UHGV virus genome: UHGV-0324942
From: a virus
Direction: 5' to 3' (one strand)
DNA: 10,676 nt
Numbering within the stretch: the first letter of the stretch is position 1; each line of letters starts with the position of its first letter. Below the pieces are notes generated by a model, which saw only the letters and a list, made by a program, of their open reading frames with translations, ran no database searches and was not told the DNA's origin. A program made the position numbers and the translations under genes. This document shows positions 2,644 through 10,676 of the stretch, piece by piece.

Positions 2644-2665
2644 CTGACTGAAAAGGAGACAACTG

Positions 2666-3040
2666 ATGAAAGATATCGATACTGAAACCCGGAATAACAC
2701 CGTAGCGGATGATGTGACGTCAGGTGAGGATATGGCTGTCGAACGTGGTGTAAAACTTTCCCGGCCAATTGAGCGTGGTGGCGAAAAAATCACGTATGTG
2801 GAGATCACCGGGGCTATTGAACAGGCTGGATCCCTGCGTGGTCTGTCTCTGTCTGATGTGCTGAATCTGAAAGCGGATACCATGTTCACGCTGTTGCCTC
2901 GCGTGACCTCGCCACGACTGGATGAAGTGATGATTAAAAAAATGTCGTCACGCGATTTTATTCAGTTGTGCGCTGTGGCTGTAAATTTTATGAGCGAGCC
3001 AGACTCTGGCGCGAAGAGCGTGCAGGAGACGGCAGCGTAA
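2666..3040 (+). CDS. E: Tail assembly chaperone (P2 gpE-like)
   Basis: 124-aa ORF with SD AAGGAG (2653-2658) 7 nt upstream of ATG; lies between the tube and tape-measure genes, the conserved chaperone position. Confidence 0.75.
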   Translation: MKDIDTETRNNTVADDVTSGEDMAVERGVKLSRPIERGGEKITYVEITGAIEQAGSLRGLSLSDVLNLKADTMFTLLPRVTSPRLDEVMIKKMSSRDFIQLCAVAVNFMSEPDSGAKSVQETAA

Positions 3041-3204
3041 TCACCCTGGTGTGCTTTGAGCACATCGAAGATCTGGTGGCGGATATTGCCGCCATTTTTA
3101 ACTGGTCGCCCGCCGAAATCTTCATGATGACGCCCGGCGAAGTGGTTAGCTGGCGCGAGCGGGCGGCACTTCGCAGCGGGAATGCAGACAATGAAGACTC
3201 TTGA
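2666..3204 (+). CDS. E+E': Predicted E+E' fusion chaperone made by programmed -1 ribosomal frameshift (slip site near 2983-2989 or 2936-2942)
   Basis: The -1 frame is open from 2938 to a TGA at 3202-3204 and overlaps the tape-measure start. A canonical X_XXY_YYZ heptamer A_AAT_TTT sits in the E frame at 2983-2989; an A7 run at 2936-2942 is an alternative. The arrangement matches the conserved chaperone frameshift of long-tailed phages. Confidence 0.5.
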
Positions 3205-5998
3205 TATCCGGGTCGCTTTCAGCGCCGTTGACAGGCTGACCCGGCCTGCCGAAAACGCCCGCCGCCTGATGGGGCAGTTTGGTGACTCCATCCAGCGAAC
3301 GCAGGGGGCGATCAAAAATCTCGAGCGTCAGGCGCGTTCATTTGAGCGCGCCCGTGACGCTGTCAGTAAAGCGGATGCGGGCATCGTGAAAGCACGACGC
3401 CAGCTTAACGCCCTTAATCAGTTACAACGCACGGGTACAGTGCTCAGCGAAAAACAACAAAAGCTGATGCAGCAGTTAAGCACCCGGCTTGAACGCCTGA
3501 ATGAATCGCGCACACGGGAAATTCAGAAAATGCGGGAACTTGGCGGAGAGCTGAAACGCCACGGCATTTCCCTGACAGGCAGCGATAACACCATCCAGCA
3601 GGCCATCAGACGCACCGAACAGTACAACAACCAGCTTGAACGCGAACGGCAGGCGCTTGCGCGTGTAACGCGGGCGCGTGAGCGGTATTCGCGCGCGCAG
3701 GAAACCGCGGGAAAACTGAAAACAGGTGGTGCGCTGACAATTGGTGCGGCAGCGGCTGGCGGCTATGCTGCCGGGCGTTTTTTGCAGCCTGCGATCGGGT
3801 TCGGGAAAGAGATGTCCCGCGTTCAGGCACTGACGCGAATCGACAAAAACAGCCCGCAGTTTAAGGCGCTGCGTGAGCAGGCGTTAAAACTTGGCTCTGA
3901 AACACAGTTTACTGCGAGTGATGCCGCCAGTGGACAGAGCTTTCTGGCAATGGCTGGTTTTACTCCGCAGGCCATTCAGGCCGCATTGCCCGGTGTTCTT
4001 AATATGGCGCTGGCAGGTGGCGTCGAACTCGGCGAGACGGCGGATATAGGCTCCAATATCCTCACACAGTTCAACCTGACAGCCGATCAAATGGACCGGG
4101 TTGGCGATACGCTGACAGCGGCATTCACCCGGACCAATACTGATTTACGCGCGCTGGGCGAAACCATGAAGTATACCGGTCCGGTTGCCGCAAAACTTGG
4201 TATCAGTCTTGAAGAAGCGGCAGCCATGGCCGGGATGCTTGCCAATAATGGTCTTCGTGGAAGCGATGCTGGTACGGCCATGCGCGCAAGTCTGTCCCGC
4301 CTTGCATCACCGCCAAAAGCTGCGGCTGATGCACTGAAAGAGCTGGGGGTGTCAGTTGCTGACGCCAGAGGCAAAATGCGCCCGATGGAGGATGTGCTGC
4401 TTGATCTCTATAAGGCGACACAAAAATACGGACAGGTGGACCAGATCTCCTTCTTCAAGGACATCGCCGGAGAAGAGGCGTTCGTTGGTTTGCAGACGCT
4501 TGTTGCGGCGGCTGGTTCAGGAGAGCTGCAAAAACTGACCAGAGAATTGCAGGGGGCAAGGGGAGAGGCCGATCGCGTTGCAAAAGTAATGGCCGATAAT
4601 CTTGATGGGGACCTGAAAAATCTCGACAGCGCATGGGAAGGTCTTCGTATTCGCATCAGTGATCTGGTTGACGGTCCGCTGCGTTCTGTCACGCAGTGGC
4701 TCACGCGGGTGCTTGAAAAAATCACCTCGCTGGCGCAGGCCCATCCGGTACTGACGCGCCAGCTACTGATAGCAGGCGGTGCGTTGCTGGCAATGACTGC
4801 AACGGTTGGCTCGTTGTCGCTGGCTATTGGTGTGCTTGCTGGCCCGCTGGCAAAACTGCGTCTTGGCTTTTCCCTCCTGACCGGTTCAATGAATGCTGTC
4901 AGACTCCTGCCAGCACTATGGGGAATGGTGACGGGTTCCGTTTCGTTACTGGGGGGCGCTATCGGGGCGTTGTTCAGTCCGGTCGGCCTTATCGTGGCTG
5001 CGCTTGCCGGAGCTGCCGTTCTCATCTGGAAATACTGGGATCCCATCAGGGCATTTTTTGCCGGGGTGTTCAGCGGGATTATGGAAAGGCTGACCCCGTT
5101 GCGCGAAACCTTTGAACGGTTTGGTCCTGTTTTTGACGCAATCGGAAGCGGGATCAGCCAGGTGTTTAACTGGTTTAAATCGCTGTTGTCACCGATGGAG
5201 TCCAGCAAGGAAACGCTGGATAAATGTACCAGTGCTGGCGAGATATTCGGTAACGTTCTTGGCGGTGCGTTACAACTTGTTCTGACGCCTGCAAAAATGT
5301 TGCTGGATACGCTGGCGTGGATACTTGAAAAACTTGGCGTCCTTCCGGATGAAGCGGAAAGGGCGCGCAAGAAAATCGAAGACGCACAGCGTGCGGCCAT
5401 TCTTCAGGACAAGGTTGCCTTACTTCAGGGGGACCTGGCGAAAATCAATCCGCCGAAGCCTGTGGAAAATGGCAATGGCACCGGAGGTGATAAACCCAAA
5501 GACAACAAACCGCTCACAGACAGCAATACCGGGACGCTGCGCAGACTCAGCAAAATTGCTGATAACACAGGTAAGCTGGTTGATGAGACGAAAAAACGCA
5601 TTGGCCCCGGCGATATTGTCTTTAAGAACCTGCCCCGCGCACTTGCTGTTCGTGGGGAGTGGCAGGAGCGGAAGATTGCGCAGGTCAGTAAGCCTGCCCC
5701 CGCAATTAATATCACACCCGTGGTCCCGGCTCCGCTGCCTCCGGCGCTGATCCCTGTTGTTGCGGCCAGCTCCCGCCCGGTGGCGGAGGCCATACAATCT
5801 CCAGTGGCATCAGTTCCTGTAACTTCCCGTAACCGGGAGCCTGTTGCCTCCGGATTTGGTGGTGAAATTCATGTTCATCTGCATAACGTTGTTACGCAGA
5901 ATCCCCGCGAACTGGCGAAACTGGTCGGTGAAATGGTCAGGGCAGAAATGGAACGGCGCGCCCGTGCCGGGCGTGGCAGTTTTTACGATAAAGATTGA
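3182..5998 (+). CDS. T: Tail tape measure protein (P2 gpT-like)
   Basis: 938-aa ORF; coiled-coil-like charged N-terminus, conserved tape-measure core (...ALGETMKYTGPVAAKLGISLEEAAAMAGMLANNGLRGSDAGTAMRASLSRL...), long hydrophobic Gly/Ala/Leu-rich central segment and Pro/Val-rich C-terminus. The true start may be the ATG at 3191. Confidence 0.9.
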   Translation: MQTMKTLDIRVAFSAVDRLTRPAENARRLMGQFGDSIQRTQGAIKNLERQARSFERARDAVSKADAGIVKARRQLNALNQLQRTGTVLSEKQQKLMQQLSTRLERLNESRTREIQKMRELGGELKRHGISLTGSDNTIQQAIRRTEQYNNQLERERQALARVTRARERYSRAQETAGKLKTGGALTIGAAAAGGYAAGRFLQPAIGFGKEMSRVQALTRIDKNSPQFKALREQALKLGSETQFTASDAASGQSFLAMAGFTPQAIQAALPGVLNMALAGGVELGETADIGSNILTQFNLTADQMDRVGDTLTAAFTRTNTDLRALGETMKYTGPVAAKLGISLEEAAAMAGMLANNGLRGSDAGTAMRASLSRLASPPKAAADALKELGVSVADARGKMRPMEDVLLDLYKATQKYGQVDQISFFKDIAGEEAFVGLQTLVAAAGSGELQKLTRELQGARGEADRVAKVMADNLDGDLKNLDSAWEGLRIRISDLVDGPLRSVTQWLTRVLEKITSLAQAHPVLTRQLLIAGGALLAMTATVGSLSLAIGVLAGPLAKLRLGFSLLTGSMNAVRLLPALWGMVTGSVSLLGGAIGALFSPVGLIVAALAGAAVLIWKYWDPIRAFFAGVFSGIMERLTPLRETFERFGPVFDAIGSGISQVFNWFKSLLSPMESSKETLDKCTSAGEIFGNVLGGALQLVLTPAKMLLDTLAWILEKLGVLPDEAERARKKIEDAQRAAILQDKVALLQGDLAKINPPKPVENGNGTGGDKPKDNKPLTDSNTGTLRRLSKIADNTGKLVDETKKRIGPGDIVFKNLPRALAVRGEWQERKIAQVSKPAPAINITPVVPAPLPPALIPVVAASSRPVAEAIQSPVASVPVTSRNREPVASGFGGEIHVHLHNVVTQNPRELAKLVGEMVRAEMERRARAGRGSFYDKD

Positions 5999-6010
5999 GG
6001 AGTCATGGCC

Positions 6011-6499
6011 ATGATGATGATCTACGGCATGTTTGTTTTTGAGCTGCGCACGTTGCCGCATCAGCAGTTACAGCAAAATAAAAGCTGGCGGCATGTGAAA
6101 AATGAACGCGTTAACCGTTCAGCAAGCTGGCAGTATATCGGGGCAGGCGATGATCGCATCGTTCTTTCTGGTGTGCTTTATCCTGAAATTACAGGTGGCG
6201 AAGTGTCGCTTTCGTTGCTGACCACGCAGGCATATACAGGACGCCCCTGGCCTCTGATTGATGGTGTCGGGCAGATTTACGGCATGTATGTACTGACTGA
6301 AACGAATACGACCCGCTCCGAGTTTGATCGCTACGGTAAGGCGAAAAAGATAGAATTTTCACTGACTCTTGAACGCTGTGATGAGGATTTGCGGGAGCGC
6401 CTGCAATCCTCATCGTTCAGCGATATGTTGTCCGGCTTCAAAGATAAGGTGACATCATCCCTTAATAGCGCGGCCAGCTCAGTTAAGGGGCTGCTCTGA
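6011..6499 (+). CDS. U: P2 gpU-like tail protein
   Basis: ORF track gives 6005-6499 (MAMMMIYGMFVFELRTLP...). SD GAGGAG (5997-6002) overlaps the T stop and is 8 nt from the ATG at 6011, giving an MMM N-terminus as in gpU; position immediately after the tape-measure gene. Confidence 0.8.
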   Translation: MMMIYGMFVFELRTLPHQQLQQNKSWRHVKNERVNRSASWQYIGAGDDRIVLSGVLYPEITGGEVSLSLLTTQAYTGRPWPLIDGVGQIYGMYVLTETNTTRSEFDRYGKAKKIEFSLTLERCDEDLRERLQSSSFSDMLSGFKDKVTSSLNSAASSVKGLL

Positions 6500-6604: not shown

Positions 6605-6655
6605 CTCTTAACCTTATAACATGTGTGGTCTGAAATAATAATTAAGGAGATTATC

Positions 6656-7228
6656 GTGCTGTCTTACCTAATGGCAATTCACTTTGTTTTATTTGGGAAC
6701 TCTACTAATTTAAAAAACTTCTGGAAACATGAAGTAATTCGGCGGAAACGTATGGATATCTGGAGGCTTTTAAGAGAGAAAAAGCAGCGTAACAGGAATT
6801 TCCTTTTCTGGTGGCGGTTGGCTAACGAAATGTATATTAATGGTAATAAATTACATAAGAAAGCAGCCAAGAAGTTAAACAGTAAAATAATTAACAAATT
6901 TGGTTGCGAAATTGGATTGGGCGCAAATATTGGAAAAGGGTTAACAATTCCCCATCATGCTGGAATTGTTGTTCATTTTGCTGTTGATGCTGGTGAAAAT
7001 CTGGTGTTACGACAGAATACGACCATTGGACAGATAGATGGTGACATACCTGGTTCAAGAGTAAAAATTGGTAGCAACGTTGATATCGGAGCTAATTGTT
7101 GCATCATTGGATTATCCCGTAAAATTGGGGATAATGTAAAAATAGGTGCAATGTCTTTTATAAATAAAGATATACCATCGAACTGCACATATATAACTAA
7201 AAAGAGCGGTGCTGTATTGTATAAATAG
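6656..7228 (+). CDS. Hexapeptide-repeat (left-handed beta-helix) acetyltransferase, serine-acetyltransferase/WcaB-like; AT-rich cargo gene
   Basis: ORF track 6623-7228; preferred start is GTG 6656, 6 nt after a perfect SD AAGGAG (6644-6649); ATG 6671 and 6752 are alternatives. Repeated [LIV]-G-x-x-x-x hexapeptide units (...IGLGANIGKGLTIPHHAGIVVHFAVDAGENLVL...VKIGSNVDIGANCCIIGL...IGDNVKIGAMSFI...). Composition is markedly more AT-rich than the flanking phage genes. Confidence 0.8.
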   Translation: MLSYLMAIHFVLFGNSTNLKNFWKHEVIRRKRMDIWRLLREKKQRNRNFLFWWRLANEMYINGNKLHKKAAKKLNSKIINKFGCEIGLGANIGKGLTIPHHAGIVVHFAVDAGENLVLRQNTTIGQIDGDIPGSRVKIGSNVDIGANCCIIGLSRKIGDNVKIGAMSFINKDIPSNCTYITKKSGAVLYK

Positions 7229-7235
7229 AGTACAT

Positions 7236-7273
7236 AAAGCCATCGATATTTCTATCGATGGCTTTTTCTTTTT
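7236..7273. terminator. Intrinsic terminator hairpin at the convergent junction (stem GCCATCGATA / TATCGATGGC, loop TTTC, then T5-C-T5)
   Basis: Perfect 10-bp stem (7239-7248 / 7253-7262), extendable by A:T pairs, followed by a T-tract on the plus strand; the minus-strand side has a weaker UUUAUG tail. Sits between the acetyltransferase stop (7228) and the G stop (7272-7274). Confidence 0.7.
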
Positions 7274-7850
7274 ATTGTGGGGCGACTGGCCACTCAATAT
7301 CTGCTGCTACTGTTGTATCAACACGATGCAACAATACTCGATATGTCTTCCATGCAGCCAGTAACGATGTCTCTTCCTCCGTCGCAATATCTAAATCTAT
7401 AGCATCCTGAAGTGGTGCAATATGCTCACTGGCTACCTGCATCAGGCTGTTTTTTGTTTCTTCCGCCTCCCTTATCCGAAATAGTTTTTCTGCTTCTGCA
7501 TCTTTCACCCAGGATGTGCCGTTCCACTTCTGATACTCTCCATACGGCGACAACCAGGTAACATTTTCCGGTAATGGACCGAGTTCAGAAATAAATAACG
7601 AGTCCCCTGATGCCACGTCATAAACCGTTTTACCCCGATGGTCTTCAACGAGATGCCACGATGCCTCATCACTGTTGAAAACGGCCACGAAGCCAGCCGG
7701 AATATCTGGCGGGGCAATATCGGTACTGTTTGCAGGCAGACCTGTATGAGGTGGAATGTATGCATCACCTTCACCAATAAACTCATTGGTTCCGGTCAGT
7801 AGATTATAAATTTTTATGGTCCGTGAGTGTTCACTCATTCTGAATGTCAT
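7272..7850 (-). CDS. G: Tail fibre assembly chaperone (lambda Tfa-like; occupies the P2 gpG position)
   Basis: 192-aa ORF; N-terminus [51 protein letters not shown]... closely matches the remembered lambda Tfa N-terminus; ATG overlaps the fibre stop (TAATG). Confidence 0.88.
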
Positions 7851-9976
7851 TATGCAAGCCTCACAATATAGTTAAATGCGATGTTTTTTACGGTGTTTTC
7901 TTTGTTACCCGTAGCGTTAACGGTGATGGTGTGTCCGTGGGGACCAATAATGACAGAATGGGCATGAGCACCAATGCCGATAGTGTGGTTATGGGCACCG
8001 ATATATACATTGTGAGCATGCCCGCCTGCGCTCGACGTGGTACCAGTACCTAACGCAGCGTTATAACCGGCTGATACACCATTCCCCGCGCCAGTGTGAC
8101 CAACAGGTATATTGTGTGAATGATTTCCAGCGCTATTCGTAGTTTTTGTGCCGTAATCAAATGAACTGGTCGTTTTAGTACCGTAATCAAACGACGATGT
8201 GGTTTTCGTCCCCAAATCCGTACTGGATGCGCTGGCGCTGTGGGTGTGCGATTTAATGCCGTCCTGTTCCTGAGACAATACGGCACGACCACTGCCGGGC
8301 TTGCCCTTAATCGTCCAGCCACGCATATCAGGAATAACGCCTGACGGATAAGCGACTGCAAGTTTCGGGTATGCAGATTTGTCAAAAGTCTGCCCCTGCA
8401 TCAGGGCATAGCCAGACGGAACGGTATCTGATGGCCACGGGATTGGTGCACCGACTGGATAAAACTCTGCAGGAGGATGAGCCGAGGTGTAAAGCTGCGC
8501 CCACGGCGACCAGTTTGCGTCGGTCGTATCCCGTCGTGAACGAATAAATGCCGGAGCATGAGCACCGCTTGTACCACTCCAGCCGATGAGTAACTCACCT
8601 TCGCCAACGGCTGTCATCCCTTTCAGGTGAATGATATTTCCATACGCTGTTGGATATCCGTTGTTATACACCTCGTATAACTCAAGACCTGTTGCCCCCT
8701 GCGTATTGTCTGTCAGCGCGGTTACCCGACCTTTTGAAGACAGATTAACTGATGATACTGCTGTTCCACCTGACGGTAATGCCCCGATCTCTGATGCCGT
8801 TGGCTTATTTCTGGAGTTATAGTCCCTTCGCCAGCCAGGTGAATAATCTGTTCCGTGATTAATATAGGTAAACTGGGCGTTAGTTGTTCCGCCACCAGTG
8901 GAGGTAGTCGGTGTGGTAATGCGGATCGTCATCGCTGACTTTATCCCCATTACTTCAATGACAGCTCCTGCGAGATGAATATTACCGCAGCCAGTATCAG
9001 TAATGATTTTATTATTGCCATAAGACCAGGAACCCTTGCACATCCAGTATGGATGGTTAAATGCTCCCTGAGAATCCAGCCACTCGATAAACTGTGCAGT
9101 CGTCCAGTCTCCTGTTGTTGTGCTTACTGACCCACCGAAGGCACGGCTGGCACCAATATTTTTCGTAAAGGTGTCTTTGCCAGGGATATCCGCACCGTTC
9201 TTATCTTTCTGCAGACGTTTCTCAGCATTGTCATTGGCTGCTTTTACTGCCTTTGGCGTTGCTGCCAGCGTTTCAGACGTGCTGTTGGTCGCGCTGCTTA
9301 GCTGGACTATCCCTTTCTGTGCTGTCGTTGCATCCTGTGCGGTGTATTTCCCGTCAGCCAGGTCATACGCGGCCTTAACTGCTTTTGGCGTTGCCGCCAG
9401 CGTTTCAGAATCGCTGTTAGTGGCGCTACTGAGTTGAACAAAGCCTTTTGCGGTCAGCGAGGCATCCGGGTGACATCGTGACTGTTCATGCTCTTTCAGT
9501 TTGTTATCCACGTAATCCACTGTGGCCATCACCATGGTGTTATCCACGGTAAGCGCCACAGTGGCAGTGCTGGATACGGTCAGAATGGTGCGAAATGTTT
9601 GTGCACGTCCGGACCCTTCGGCAACGGCTGGCTTGTAACTTTCGGCAGTATTGCCCACCGCGATTAAATCGCCGTGCTCATCAAACACACCAATTTCCCG
9701 GATCCAGAATCCGCCCGTTTCTGGAGGAATAACCAGCTCCGCAATAATGCGGTTCTGATGTGTTGCGTCCAGGATGACGCGATTAACAGTGTGTCGCCAC
9801 ACCTCATGCACCAGACGGGTCTGCTTACTGTCTGGTGTGGGCAACGCGCCGCCACCGTCGCCCACGGCCATATGAGTCAGGCGGACAGGCTTACCATCTG
9901 GCGCGGCTGCCTGAGCTAATTTTTTGGCACCTGTATCGGTGATAACGGTTTTAAATTTTCGTGTTGTGGTACTCAT
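7850..9976 (-). CDS. H: Tail fibre protein, mosaic: P2 gpH-like N-terminus with a lambda Stf/T4 gp37-like His-box distal tip
   Basis: 708-aa ORF; N-terminal region (...MAVGDGGG...HEVWRH...[10 protein letters not shown]...) and duplicated [21 protein letters not shown] motif are typical of gpH; C-terminus carries [10 protein letters not shown] tandem repeats and five HxH boxes (HSHN, HAHN, HNHT, HAHS, HGHT), ending ...[11 protein letters not shown]. Confidence 0.9.
8141..8233 (-). repeat. About three imperfect tandem copies of a 30-bp unit inside the fibre gene (encode [10 protein letters not shown] repeats)
   Basis: Plus-strand units tttgtgccgtaatcaaatgaactggtcg / tttagtaccgtaatcaaacgacgatgtgg / tttcgtccccaaatccgtactggatgcg read directly. 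Confidence 0.6.
9236..9445 (-). repeat. Two roughly 75-bp direct repeats with 132-bp period inside the fibre gene (encode the duplicated [23 protein letters not shown] motif)
   Basis: Near-identical stretches (...ctttggcgttgc[t/c]gccagcgtttcaga...) at about 9236-9313 and 9368-9445; they also create the spurious plus-strand ORF 9120-9437 with an internally repeated peptide. Confidence 0.6.
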
Positions 9977-9978
9977 GC

Positions 9979-10509
9979 TTAATCGTCCGGATAAATGGTA
10001 ATAACTTCACCGTCATGAGTTGCCGCCGCTGCAAAAATATCCCCCGGAATTTCCTGAATGATATTCAGCCCTGTCATGTGGCGGCTGACCGGACGGGCAT
10101 CAGCAATCAACCGCTCCATTTCCAGATACATTTCCTCCGTCACGCCACTGTCCAGTGTGCCGACTTCAACGGTAAATGTTCCCGGTTCTCCGCCGAACTC
10201 CCACCACTCAGACACGCGAATGAGGTATCCCAGCGGCTCAATGGCCCTGCGCAGTGCGCTGATGGTCCCTTTGTGTCGGTGTGTCAGCCATGCATCACGA
10301 ATCACCTGTCGTTTTGTCTCTTCCGGCCAGTTGCGATCCCAGCGGTCAACGGAAAATGCCCAGGCGAGATAAGGCAGCAGGTGCACCGGGCAGGTGTCCG
10401 GCGACCACAGCGTGTTGAGGTCTACCGGGATGTCTGTAATGCGCGTTCCGACAGCTTCGGCACAACGCATGAAACTGCTGGCTGATGGTGGTAACAGTGA
10501 ATTACTCAT
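9979..10509 (-). CDS. I: Baseplate protein (P2 gpI-like)
   Basis: ORF track gives a GTG start at 10542, but the ATG at 10509 yields [12 protein letters not shown]..., matching the gpI N-terminus, and the upstream codons belong to the J reading frame; internal ...[15 protein letters not shown]...ERLIADARP... resembles gpI. Confidence 0.85.
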
Positions 10510-10676
10510 TGCGCCCACCTTCGCTGATGGTGAACGACTCACAGCGCGCCGCCTGTATGTCGCTGATGGCCATATTCTGTGTGGGTTCGATTATCTCCAC
10601 GCGTTGCACACCGTGCACATGCAGTGCGGCAGCAATGGCGGACAACGCCACGTCCTGACCGATAAGCCCCTGCTCA
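10502..10676 (-). CDS. J: Baseplate assembly protein (P2 gpJ-like), C-terminal 57 codons; 5' end outside the window
   Basis: Minus-strand frame open from the window edge to TAA (10504-10502): ...[57 protein letters not shown]. Its last codons overlap the I start by 8 nt (ATGAGTAA). Identity inferred mainly from position upstream of I. Confidence 0.55.
   Translation of the reverse strand, partial: EQGLIGQDVALSAIAAALHVHGVQRVEIIEPTQNMAISDIQAARCESFTISEGGRNE

What the first reader, a model, noticed from the sequence alone, without database searches (positions are those of the whole stretch)
2936..2989. Predicted programmed -1 frameshift producing an E+E' chaperone
The -1 frame is open from 2938 and ends at 3204, overlapping the tape-measure start. 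A canonical heptamer A_AAT_TTT (2983-2989) lies in the E frame; an A7 run (2936-2942) is a second candidate. E continues 16-33 codons past either site before its own stop, so the exact site is uncertain. The fusion would be about 178 aa from the 2983-2989 site.
Basis: partly seen in the sequence, partly recalled or inferred. Interest (0 to 1): 0.45.

Follow-up and report, generated by a model that had tools for sequence, protein, structure and literature searches.

The report
P2-type tail chaperone E/E' frameshift
This is the well-known programmed -1 ribosomal frameshift that lets P2-like phages make two tail-assembly chaperones (E and E+E') from one start codon; it is ordinary, except that this common E. 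coli prophage lineage has lost the family's usual TTTTTTG slip site and keeps only AAATTTT one codon upstream.

Summary
The window is the tail module of a P88-like (Xuanwuvirus, Peduoviridae) prophage: sheath, tube, E (2666-3040), tape measure, gpU. The -1 frame is open 2938-3204, carries Pfam Phage_P2_GpE (E=2.9e-12), and overlaps the tape-measure start.

A_AAT_TTT (2983-2989) is the only in-frame canonical heptamer in E. It abuts the position where 86 of 95 relatives have P2's T_TTT_TTN. Here the homologous bases read TTTTATG (A at 2990), so only the upstream heptamer survives. This allele was identical in 78 of 78 close relatives. It is also present in phage PhiSM, which the literature describes as fully functional.

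The A7 run is rejected as the conserved site. A -1-frame TGA lies between it and the heptamer in 112 of 119 P88-allele loci and in 3 of 78 window-allele loci. No conserved stimulatory RNA structure was found, as reported for P2.

The predicted product is 179 aa with junction ...AVAVNF|YERARLW. Public records split it into a "tail protein" and a 51-aa "GpE family" ORF. The exact fusion is absent from a 15-billion-protein collection.

Verdict: a new, unannotated member of a known kind with a variant slip site. No experiment shows the shift here. Low to moderate interest.

The parts
2653..2658 (+). Shine-Dalgarno sequence AAGGAG of gene E, 7 nt before the ATG
   Evidence: Read directly from the sequence.
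2666..3040 (+). Gene E, the zero-frame tail assembly chaperone (124 aa)
   Evidence: ORF, translation. PHROG 103 'tail protein' E=2.2e-36. Pfam Phage_TAC_7 E=2e-4, 21.7 bits, below the 25-bit cutoff. 35% identity to Wphi gpE, E=1e-15. Lies between the tube gene (2098-2610, PF04985) and the tape measure gene.
2983..2989 (+). Slippery heptamer A_AAT_TTT, the proposed -1 frameshift site (Asn107 in the P site, Phe108 in the A site)
   Evidence: Only in-frame canonical heptamer in E. Conserved in P88 and Chuche and in 78 of 78 close IMG/VR relatives. Overlaps the homologous position of the P2-family T_TTT_TTN site by one codon. H_HH.U_UU.Y motifs are among the most efficient in E. coli (PMC4066793).
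2986..2992 (+). Position homologous to the P2-family T_TTT_TTG site. It reads TTTTATG here; the A at 2990 breaks the consensus.
   Evidence: Alignment with P88 and Chuche, which have AAATTTTTTG. BLASTP aligns window NFM with Wphi GFL. 86 of 95 surveyed loci have T_TTT_TTN here.
2989..3204 (+). E' extension read in the -1 frame after the slip (71 aa, YERARLW...NEDS, stop TGA 3202-3204). The full product is join(2666..2989, 2989..3204) = 179 aa.
   Evidence: The -1-frame amino-acid sequence is conserved immediately after the site (G.W..ER.GD) with no stops in 38 non-redundant loci. The 71-aa extension is intact in 103 of 117 window-allele hits.
3076..3183 (+). Phage_P2_GpE domain (PF06528) within E'
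   Evidence: Pfam E=2.9e-12, 46.3 bits against a cutoff of 23. 48% identity to Wphi E', E=8e-17. All 13 modelled fusions match PF06528.
2936..2942 (+). Rejected as the conserved shift site.
   Evidence: A -1-frame TGA lies between it and the heptamer in P88 and Chuche, in 112 of 119 P88-allele loci and in 3 of 78 window-allele loci. It is not a canonical heptamer in the E frame (T_AAA_AAA). A product made from it would replace the conserved E residues D97, L101 and F108.
3191..5998 (+). Tape measure gene T. An alternative in-frame ATG lies at 3182. The start of T overlaps the end of E'.
   Evidence: ORF. PF10145 E=8.6e-57. The start equivalent to 3191 is the one annotated in relatives.

Best explanation
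Genes E and E' encode the two tail assembly chaperones of a P88-like, P2-family myovirus prophage.

Most ribosomes translate E from ATG 2666 to TAA 3040 and make the 124-aa gpE. A minority slip back one base, with tRNA-Asn on AAU (2984-2986) in the P site and tRNA-Phe on UUU (2987-2989) in the A site. The two tRNAs re-pair with AAA and UUU, and the next codon read is UAU (2989-2991).

Translation then continues in the -1 frame to TGA 3204. The result is a 179-aa gpE+E' that shares 108 N-terminal residues with gpE and ends in the conserved GpE domain.

The site works without a dedicated RNA stimulator, as reported for P2, so the shift is expected to be infrequent. This fixes a high E to E+E' ratio.

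By analogy with lambda G/GT, the shared E part would bind the tape measure protein and the E' part would recruit the tube subunit. Neither protein would end up in the virion.

Shown here: the reading-frame anatomy, the homology, the conservation of the site and of the -1-frame protein, and the exclusion of the A7 run in relatives.

Inferred: that the slip happens at all, its efficiency, and the protein roles.
For: Synteny is tube, E, tape measure, gpU.

The -1 frame carries PF06528 (E=2.9e-12). E and E' are homologous to Wphi gpE and E', and the Wphi record annotates a -1 frameshift join. Burkholderia phage Musica does the same.

A tblastn search with the modelled fusion finds 405 phage records, almost all as two pieces in two frames.

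Modelled fusions from 13 phages align with the junction Phe in one nearly invariant column.

In a survey of 95 loci, 86 have T_TTT_TTN at the homologous spot. In 6 of them the -1 frame opens exactly at the heptamer.

Upstream of the site the E frame is the conserved one: 0.47 mean pairwise identity against 0.28, with -1-frame stops in 17 of 38 loci. Downstream the -1 frame is the conserved one: 0.49 against 0.39, with no stops.

AAATTTT is invariant in both Xuanwuvirus alleles. Klebsiella Reipivirus-type loci have independently lost T6G and retain C_CCT_TTC at the same upstream position.

H_HH.U_UU.Y heptamers are among the most efficient in E. coli, and R_RR.U_UU.Y is named as frameshift-prone. 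U_UUG is only 1.8-3.6 fold above background (PMC4066793).

PhiSM carries the identical site and is described as a fully functional temperate phage (PMC6456863).
Against: There is no experimental evidence for this locus.

The family's consensus T_TTT_TTG is broken here, so efficiency could differ from P2.

A heptamer in the overlap would occur by chance in about 9% of codon shuffles.

No stimulatory hairpin or Shine-Dalgarno-like element was found. This fits P2 but gives no independent support.

GTG codons in the -1 frame at 2968 and 3049 could in principle start E' independently, and public annotation uses 3049.

I did not check the site itself in the roughly 600 E. coli genomes that hold the window-type prophage at 95% identity or more; only one was read.
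Confidence: 0.85

Rival explanations
1. The shift, or RNA-polymerase slippage, occurs at the A7 run (2936-2942). The ribosome enters the -1 frame at 2938 or 2941 and produces ...VMIKK-NVVTRFYSVVRCGCKFYERARLW..., also 179 aa.
For: In the window the -1 frame is open from 2938. In 107 of 117 window-allele hits it stays open back to the run. Homopolymeric A runs can support A-site slippage; the A_AAA tetramer is weakly shifty (PMC4066793). The A7 run is conserved in both Xuanwuvirus alleles.
Against: In the E frame the run reads T_AAA_AAA, which is not a canonical heptamer.

P88, Chuche and 112 of 119 P88-allele loci have a -1-frame TGA between the run and the E' domain. So do 3 of 78 window-allele loci, which nevertheless keep E' intact. 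That stop toggles through a CGC/CGT change that is synonymous in E, which indicates no constraint on the -1 frame there.

Outside Xuanwuvirus the run is absent: the residues are INEM instead of IKKM. 17 of 38 loci have -1-frame stops in this stretch.

The product would also replace invariant E residues (D97).
Confidence: 0.04
2. There is no frameshift. E' is a separate small gene translated from its own start: GTG 3049 (51 aa, as in RefSeq and GenBank) or GTG 2968 (78 aa, as in PHROG 1756).
For: Public records annotate a separate 51-aa 'GpE family phage tail protein'. PHROG 1756 matches the 78-aa ORF end to end. P88 has an ATG at the position of GTG 2968.
Against: There is no Shine-Dalgarno sequence at a useful distance. 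The nearest AGGAG (3024-3028) is 20 nt before GTG 3049, and it is conserved because it encodes Gly-Asp-Gly in the -1 frame. Nothing purine-rich precedes 2968.

The -1-frame protein sequence is conserved from the slip site onward, upstream of 3049.

The GTG at 3049 is not conserved outside Xuanwuvirus.

In several genera the last -1-frame stop lies 0-4 codons before the heptamer. In the loci read, no start codon lies between it and the heptamer.

In P2, E' is reported to lack a ribosome binding site, and E+E' is the reported product (PMC3931495; PMC3091744).
Confidence: 0.06
3. In this allele the frameshift is a decaying relic. The T-to-A change at 2990 destroyed the functional T6G site, and E' is no longer made or needed.
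For: TTTTATG replaces TTTTTTG at the homologous position. 86 of 95 family loci keep T6N.
Against: The E' extension is intact and nearly invariant in 103 of 117 window-allele hits; 91 are identical at the protein level. The allele is fixed in 78 of 78 close relatives. It is present in PhiSM, described as a fully functional phage. The upstream A_AAT_TTT heptamer remains. Klebsiella phages show a parallel loss of T6G with C_CCT_TTC retained.
Confidence: 0.03

Closest known systems
Bacteriophage P2 E / E+E' (Christie et al. 2002, J Bacteriol 184:6522), annotated in the P2-like phages Wphi and L-413C
   Same: Same gene position, between FII (tube) and T (tape measure). Homologous E (35% identity) and E' (48% identity, PF06528). 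E' is in the -1 frame, overlapping the end of E and the start of T. The slip occurs at the same Phe codon. No stimulatory RNA structure (PMC3091744).
   Different: P2 uses T_TTT_TTG; here that heptamer reads TTTTATG and the only canonical heptamer is A_AAT_TTT, one codon upstream. E is 124 aa rather than 91, with a longer N-terminus. E continues 16 codons past the site rather than 7. E' has a 14-residue insertion after the junction (LWREERAGDGSV...) shared with Reipi-, Novem- and Reginaelenavirus-type phages. The fusion is 179 aa rather than 142.
Phage lambda G / GT and the conserved tail-chaperone frameshift of long-tailed phages (Levin 1993; Xu, Hendrix and Duda 2004, 2013, 2014)
   Same: Two proteins from one start through a low-frequency -1 shift, encoded between the major tail gene and the tape measure gene. 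The presumed roles are the same: the shared part binds the tape measure, the extension recruits the tube, and neither is in the virion (summarised in PMC5009743).
   Different: To my knowledge there is no detectable sequence similarity to lambda G/GT; this was not tested here. Lambda is a siphovirus with a different heptamer. The functional transfer to this locus is by analogy only.
Escherichia phage P88 and Chuche (Xuanwuvirus, the other allele)
   Same: About 84-85% DNA identity, the same E/E' architecture, and the same AAATTTT.
   Different: P88 has AAATTTTTTG, which offers both A_AAT_TTT and T_TTT_TTG, and has a -1-frame TGA upstream that closes the frame between the A7 run and the site.
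Klebsiella phage Kp4846-1 (Reipivirus) and a Klebsiella michiganensis prophage (L114)
   Same: Independent loss of T6G (CCCTTTCTTG), with a canonical X_XXT_TTY heptamer (C_CCT_TTC) kept one codon upstream, as in the window.
   Different: C rather than A in the first triplet; about 50% protein identity. Neither is annotated or tested.
Mannheimia and Haemophilus P2-like phages with G_GGA_AAG
   Same: The same E/E' pair, with a non-T6G heptamer annotated as the slippery sequence.
   Different: A different heptamer class (X_XXA_AAG) at a different distance from the GpE domain.

Membership tests
P2-type gpE / gpE+E' frameshifted tail assembly chaperone | Located between the tail tube gene and the tape measure gene | tested here: met
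   Tube 2098-2610 (PF04985, E=2e-45), E 2666-3040, tape measure 3182/3191-5998 (PF10145, E=9e-57), gpU 6005-6499.
P2-type gpE / gpE+E' frameshifted tail assembly chaperone | The zero-frame protein is homologous to gpE (Phage_TAC_7 / PHROG 103) | tested here: met
   BLASTP against Wphi gpE gives E=1e-15 and 35% identity. PHROG 103 E=2.2e-36. Pfam PF10109 scores only 21.7 bits, below the 25-bit cutoff, although 11 of 13 aligned family members match it.
P2-type gpE / gpE+E' frameshifted tail assembly chaperone | The -1 frame overlaps the 3' end of E and the start of T and encodes the GpE domain (PF06528) | tested here: met
   Open 2938-3204. PF06528 E=2.9e-12, 46.3 bits against a cutoff of 23, at 3076-3183.
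P2-type gpE / gpE+E' frameshifted tail assembly chaperone | E' has no ribosome binding site or conserved start codon of its own | tested here: met
   No Shine-Dalgarno sequence within 5-12 nt of GTG 2968 or GTG 3049. GTG 3049 is not conserved outside the genus. The -1-frame protein is conserved upstream of 3049. In relatives the -1 frame opens 0-4 codons before the heptamer. Caveat: GTG codons do exist in the window, so initiation there is not formally excluded.
P2-type gpE / gpE+E' frameshifted tail assembly chaperone | An in-frame canonical X_XXY_YYZ heptamer lies in the overlap at the conserved junction | tested here: met
   A_AAT_TTT at 2983-2989 is the only such heptamer in E. The junction Phe column is nearly invariant across 13 phages.
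P2-type gpE / gpE+E' frameshifted tail assembly chaperone | The family's own slip motif, T_TTT_TTG (T6G or T6N) | tested here: not met
   The homologous bases 2986-2992 read TTTTATG. 86 of 95 surveyed loci have T6N. The motif sequence differs, but the mechanism class and the position do not.
P2-type gpE / gpE+E' frameshifted tail assembly chaperone | A fusion protein is actually produced, and both E and E+E' are required | not testable with these tools
   Needs protein analysis or a reporter assay. The only indirect support is the intact E' in 103 of 117 window-allele hits and the reported viability of PhiSM, which carries the same site.
Frameshift sites with a 3' RNA stimulator (IS3/IS911 or dnaX type) | A conserved downstream hairpin or pseudoknot, or an upstream Shine-Dalgarno-like element | tested here: not met
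   Folding z-scores of -1.37, -0.34 and -0.14. RNAalifold on 14 homologues predicts 0 pairs. No Shine-Dalgarno-like sequence lies 6-17 nt upstream.

The most novel reading that the evidence does not exclude
The window-type allele acts as a natural knockout of P2's T6G motif. If E+E' is still made, then A_AAU_UUU, one codon upstream, is the operative heptamer in Xuanwuvirus. X_XXU_UUY may then be the real site in the whole subgroup that reads CCCTTTTTTG or AAATTTTTTG. The two widespread E. coli prophage alleles (ATG and TTG at 2990-2992) might set different E to E+E' ratios.
Probability: 0.3. Interest if true: 0.35.

Novelty: new member of a known kind. Interest (0 to 1): 0.25.

Why it matters
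It matters mainly for annotation. This prophage family matched 1,370 of 5,426 complete E. coli genomes. In the RefSeq and GenBank records I read, the chaperone is split into a "tail protein" and a spurious 51-aa "GpE family" ORF. The exact 179-aa product is absent from a 15-billion-protein collection.

There is also a small mechanistic point. The lineage shows that the P2-family T6G motif is dispensable when an X_XXU_UUY heptamer sits one codon upstream. This agrees with the measured motif hierarchy in E. coli (PMC4066793) and provides two natural alleles for comparing frameshift efficiency.

It does not open a new question about tail assembly.

Tried and rejected
- **A7 run as the site.** Rejected on -1-frame stops in relatives.
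- **Other T-rich spots.** CGATTTT (2953-2959) and TGTAAAT (2980-2986) are slippery in the A site only and are not canonical. The first is not conserved in P88, which has GACTTT.
- **Downstream stimulatory structure.** Single-sequence folds of 2983-3080, of 2990-3050 and of the P88 equivalent are not better than shuffles. RNAalifold on 14 homologues gives no pairs. A 5-bp GCCAG/CTGGC hairpin at 2998-3010, seen by eye, is not in the minimum-free-energy fold and is not conserved in P88.
- **Terminator-like hairpin at 3074-3094.** One site found against 0.7 expected from shuffles. By eye the stem is weaker in P88. Treated as a by-product of the ADIAAIF coding sequence.
- **NCBIfam.** No hits for E or E'.
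- **Solved structures.** A profile search found nothing below E=0.2.
- **Literature.** Christie et al. 2002 (PMC135442) is not held, so the P2 facts are taken from papers that cite it. My recollection that both products are essential in P2 could not be checked.
- **Automatic ORF logic.** It failed on high-GC loci (L012, L014) and on degraded Symbiopectobacterium loci. It was replaced by domain-anchored logic.
- **Structure prediction.** Not run, because it would not bear on the frameshift question.

Full report
**1. What is in the window**

The + strand carries a P2-type tail module:
- sheath, 914-2098 (PF04984 and related domains);
- tube, 2098-2610 (PF04985, E=2e-45);
- a 124-aa ORF, 2666-3040;
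- a 938-aa tape measure protein, 3182-5998 (PF10145, E=9e-57);
- gpU, 6005-6499 (PF06995).

The DNA is 98% identical to Citrobacter phage Shae_phiSM and to Xuanwuvirus P88_4B11, and about 84-85% identical to Escherichia phage P88. Similar DNA was found in 1,370 of 5,426 complete E. coli genomes: 594 records at 95% identity or more and 739 at 80-90%.

**2. Check of the observation**

All stated coordinates hold.
- E runs from ATG 2666 (AAGGAG at 2653-2658) to TAA 3038-3040.
- The -1 frame has TAA at 2935-2937, is open from 2938, and ends at TGA 3202-3204. It therefore overlaps the tape measure start at 3182, or at 3191 as annotated in relatives.
- Bases 2983-2989 are AAATTTT, read GTA|AAT|TTT in the E frame.
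- The A7 run is at 2936-2942.
- The fusion made at 2983-2989 is 179 aa, with junction ...AVAVNF|YERARLW....
- AAATTTT is the only in-frame X_XXY_YYZ heptamer in E.
- Such a heptamer falls in the overlap in 9% of codon shuffles, so the motif alone proves little.

**3. What the two frames encode**

- The -1 frame contains Pfam Phage_P2_GpE (PF06528; E=2.9e-12, 46.3 bits, cutoff 23) at 3076-3183.
- E matches PHROG 103 (E=2e-36). It matches Pfam Phage_TAC_7 only weakly, at 21.7 bits, below the cutoff.
- Against the P2-like phage Wphi, E is 35% identical (E=1e-15), with window ...VAVNFMS aligned to ...KVVGFLS. E' is 48% identical (E=8e-17).
- The Wphi record annotates gpE+E' as a joined CDS with a "-1 translational frameshift". 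Burkholderia phage Musica does likewise.
- A tblastn search with the modelled fusion finds 405 phage records, nearly all as two pieces in two frames.

**4. Where the shift occurs**

I compared the window with 14 phages and with 80 genomic loci fetched from the one-genome-per-species collection.

Heptamer at the homologous position:

| Heptamer | Loci (of 95) |
|---|---|
| T_TTT_TTN (G most often, also A, T or C) | 86 |
| None scored; E is degraded, though two of these loci still carry T6G (Symbiopectobacterium) | 4 |
| G_GGA_AAG (Pasteurellaceae) | 2 |
| C_CCT_TTC only, one codon upstream (Klebsiella) | 2 |
| A_AAT_TTT only, one codon upstream (the window) | 1 |

- T_TTT_TTN is the motif at which P2 shifts (PMC3091744; PMC3931495).
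- In 6 loci the -1 frame opens exactly at the heptamer, and in many others 3-4 codons before it. This pins the family's site to that spot.
- P88 and Chuche read GTA AAT TTT TTG, so they have both A_AAT_TTT and T_TTT_TTG. The window reads GTA AAT TTT ATG, and the A at 2990 breaks T6G.
- The Klebsiella sequence, GTC CCT TTC TTG, was read directly.
- Modelled fusions from 13 phages align with the junction Phe in one nearly invariant column.
- Around that Phe, upstream, the E frame is the conserved one: 0.47 mean pairwise identity against 0.28, with -1-frame stops in 17 of 38 non-redundant loci.
- Downstream, the -1 frame is the conserved one: 0.49 against 0.39, no stops, and a G.W..ER.GD motif. 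That set includes four mis-anchored or frameshifted loci, which only dilute the contrast.

**5. The A7 run**

- In the E frame it reads T_AAA_AAA, which is not canonical.
- P88 and Chuche have TGA in the -1 frame between the run and the heptamer. So do 112 of 119 P88-allele IMG/VR hits and 3 of 78 window-allele loci that otherwise keep E' intact.
- The stop toggles through a CGC/CGT change that is synonymous in E. The -1 frame is therefore unconstrained there.
- A product made from the A7 run would also replace invariant E residues such as D97.
- It can be at most a minor adventitious site.

**6. Is the variant site plausible?**

- The systematic E. coli study lists H_HH.U_UU.Y among the most efficient heptamers. 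It names R_RR.U_UU.Y as frameshift-prone despite the heterogeneous P-site codon. Its rule is that the best motifs allow cognate A-site re-pairing, which holds for UUU to UUU (PMC4066793).
- In the same study the U_UUG tetramer was only 1.8-3.6 fold above background.
- A_AAU_UUU should therefore be at least as shift-prone in E. coli as P2's U_UUU_UUG.
- The window allele AAATTTTATG is invariant in 78 of 78 close IMG/VR relatives.
- Each allele has at least 120 exact 16-mer matches in IMG/VR.
- The 71-aa E' extension is intact in 103 of 117 window-allele hits.
- PhiSM carries the identical site and is described as a fully functional, spontaneously active temperate phage (PMC6456863).
- A P-site-only slip of tRNA-Phe on U_UUU_A would give the same protein, so the junction prediction does not depend on which of these two mechanisms operates.

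**7. Stimulators**

- Folds of 2983-3080, of 2990-3050 and of the P88 equivalent are no better than shuffles (z = -1.37, -0.34, -0.14).
- RNAalifold on 14 homologues predicts no pairs.
- No Shine-Dalgarno-like element lies 6-17 nt upstream.
- This matches the absence of such structures reported for P2 and the Burkholderia P2-like phages (PMC3091744). It suggests a low, unstimulated shift frequency, which is an inference.

**8. Rival: independent initiation of E'**

- RefSeq and GenBank records annotate a separate 51-aa "GpE family phage tail protein" from the GTG equivalent to 3049.
- The nearest AGGAG (3024-3028) is 20 nt upstream of that GTG, and it is conserved as Gly-Asp-Gly coding sequence in the -1 frame.
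- The GTG is not conserved outside the genus.
- The -1-frame protein is conserved upstream of it.
- Relatives offer no start between the last -1-frame stop and the heptamer.
- In P2, E' is reported to lack a ribosome binding site (PMC3931495).
- I consider the separate ORF an annotation artefact.
- The exact 179-aa fusion, and both possible P88 fusions, are absent from the 15-billion-protein collection. The 124-aa E is present only as "phage tail protein".

**9. Function**

By homology with P2 E/E+E' and by analogy with lambda G/GT (PMC5009743), the two proteins are tail assembly chaperones. The shared part would coat the tape measure protein and the extension would recruit the tube subunit. 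This step is inferred and was not tested here. I recall that both products are essential in P2 (Christie et al. 2002), but that paper is not held and I could not verify it.

**10. Verdict**

The finding is real and correctly interpreted. It is a new, unannotated member of a well-known kind. The modest twist is that the family's T6G motif is lost and a canonical A_AAT_TTT heptamer one codon upstream remains, paralleled independently in Klebsiella phages.

Confidence that E+E' is made by a -1 shift at 2983-2989 is about 0.85. Interest is low to moderate.

Noticed in passing
window 6623-7228 (+): A 201-aa ORF lies between gpU and the tail-fibre assembly gene. It has sub-threshold hexapeptide-repeat hits (Pfam) and matches PHROG 2154 (E=4e-86, unknown function). 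RefSeq annotates it as 'serine acetyltransferase'. In the closely related phage Shae_phiSM the same slot holds a DNA invertase on the opposite strand. The segment occurs in 530 E. coli genomes, with 66 places on plasmids. It may be a cargo gene unrelated to tail assembly.
   Followed up: partly
window 7272-10542 (-): Tail-fibre assembly (PF02413), tail fibre (708 aa; PF12571, PF03406, Collar) and gpI (PF09684) genes lie on the minus strand, convergent with the FI-FII-E-T-U operon. No gpD homologue follows gpU in the window, unlike the P2 FETUD order.
   Followed up: partly
window 3074-3094 (+), then TTTTT 3095-3099: An intrinsic-terminator-like hairpin (9 pairs, 5 of them G-C) followed by T5 sits inside the GpE-domain coding sequence (ADIAAIF). 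One site was found against 0.7 expected from shuffles, and by eye the stem is weaker in P88. It is probably a by-product of the coding sequence.
   Followed up: partly
L006 628-637 (Klebsiella phage Kp4846-1) and L114 928-937 (Klebsiella michiganensis): An independent loss of the T6G motif (CCCTTTCTTG), leaving only C_CCT_TTC one codon upstream. This is the same solution as in the window.
   Followed up: partly
window 2998-3048 (E' residues after the junction); alignment A2 columns 115-128: A 14-residue insertion after the junction (ARLWREERAGDGSV, with a conserved W..ER.GDG motif) is shared by Xuanwu-, Reipi-, Novem- and Reginaelenavirus-type phages and many enterobacterial prophages. It is absent from P2, Wphi and the Burkholderia phages. 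Its role is unknown.
   Followed up: no
L097, L100, L101, L120 (Symbiopectobacterium genomes): The E reading frame is interrupted or frameshifted in these loci. L101 and L120 still carry the T6G motif and a recognisable E'. They look like decaying prophages in a host-restricted symbiont.
   Followed up: no
L001/L178 (OR565851.1) and the RefSeq phage records NC_049391 and NC_026014: Mislabelled products in public records. The sheath gene is called 'late control gene D protein' in Shae_phiSM, and the tube gene (PF04985) is called 'head closure' in several RefSeq phage records.
   Followed up: no
window 3182 vs 3191: Two in-frame ATGs could start the tape measure gene. Relatives annotate the second one. 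By eye, GGGA at 3178-3181 is better spaced for 3191.
   Followed up: no
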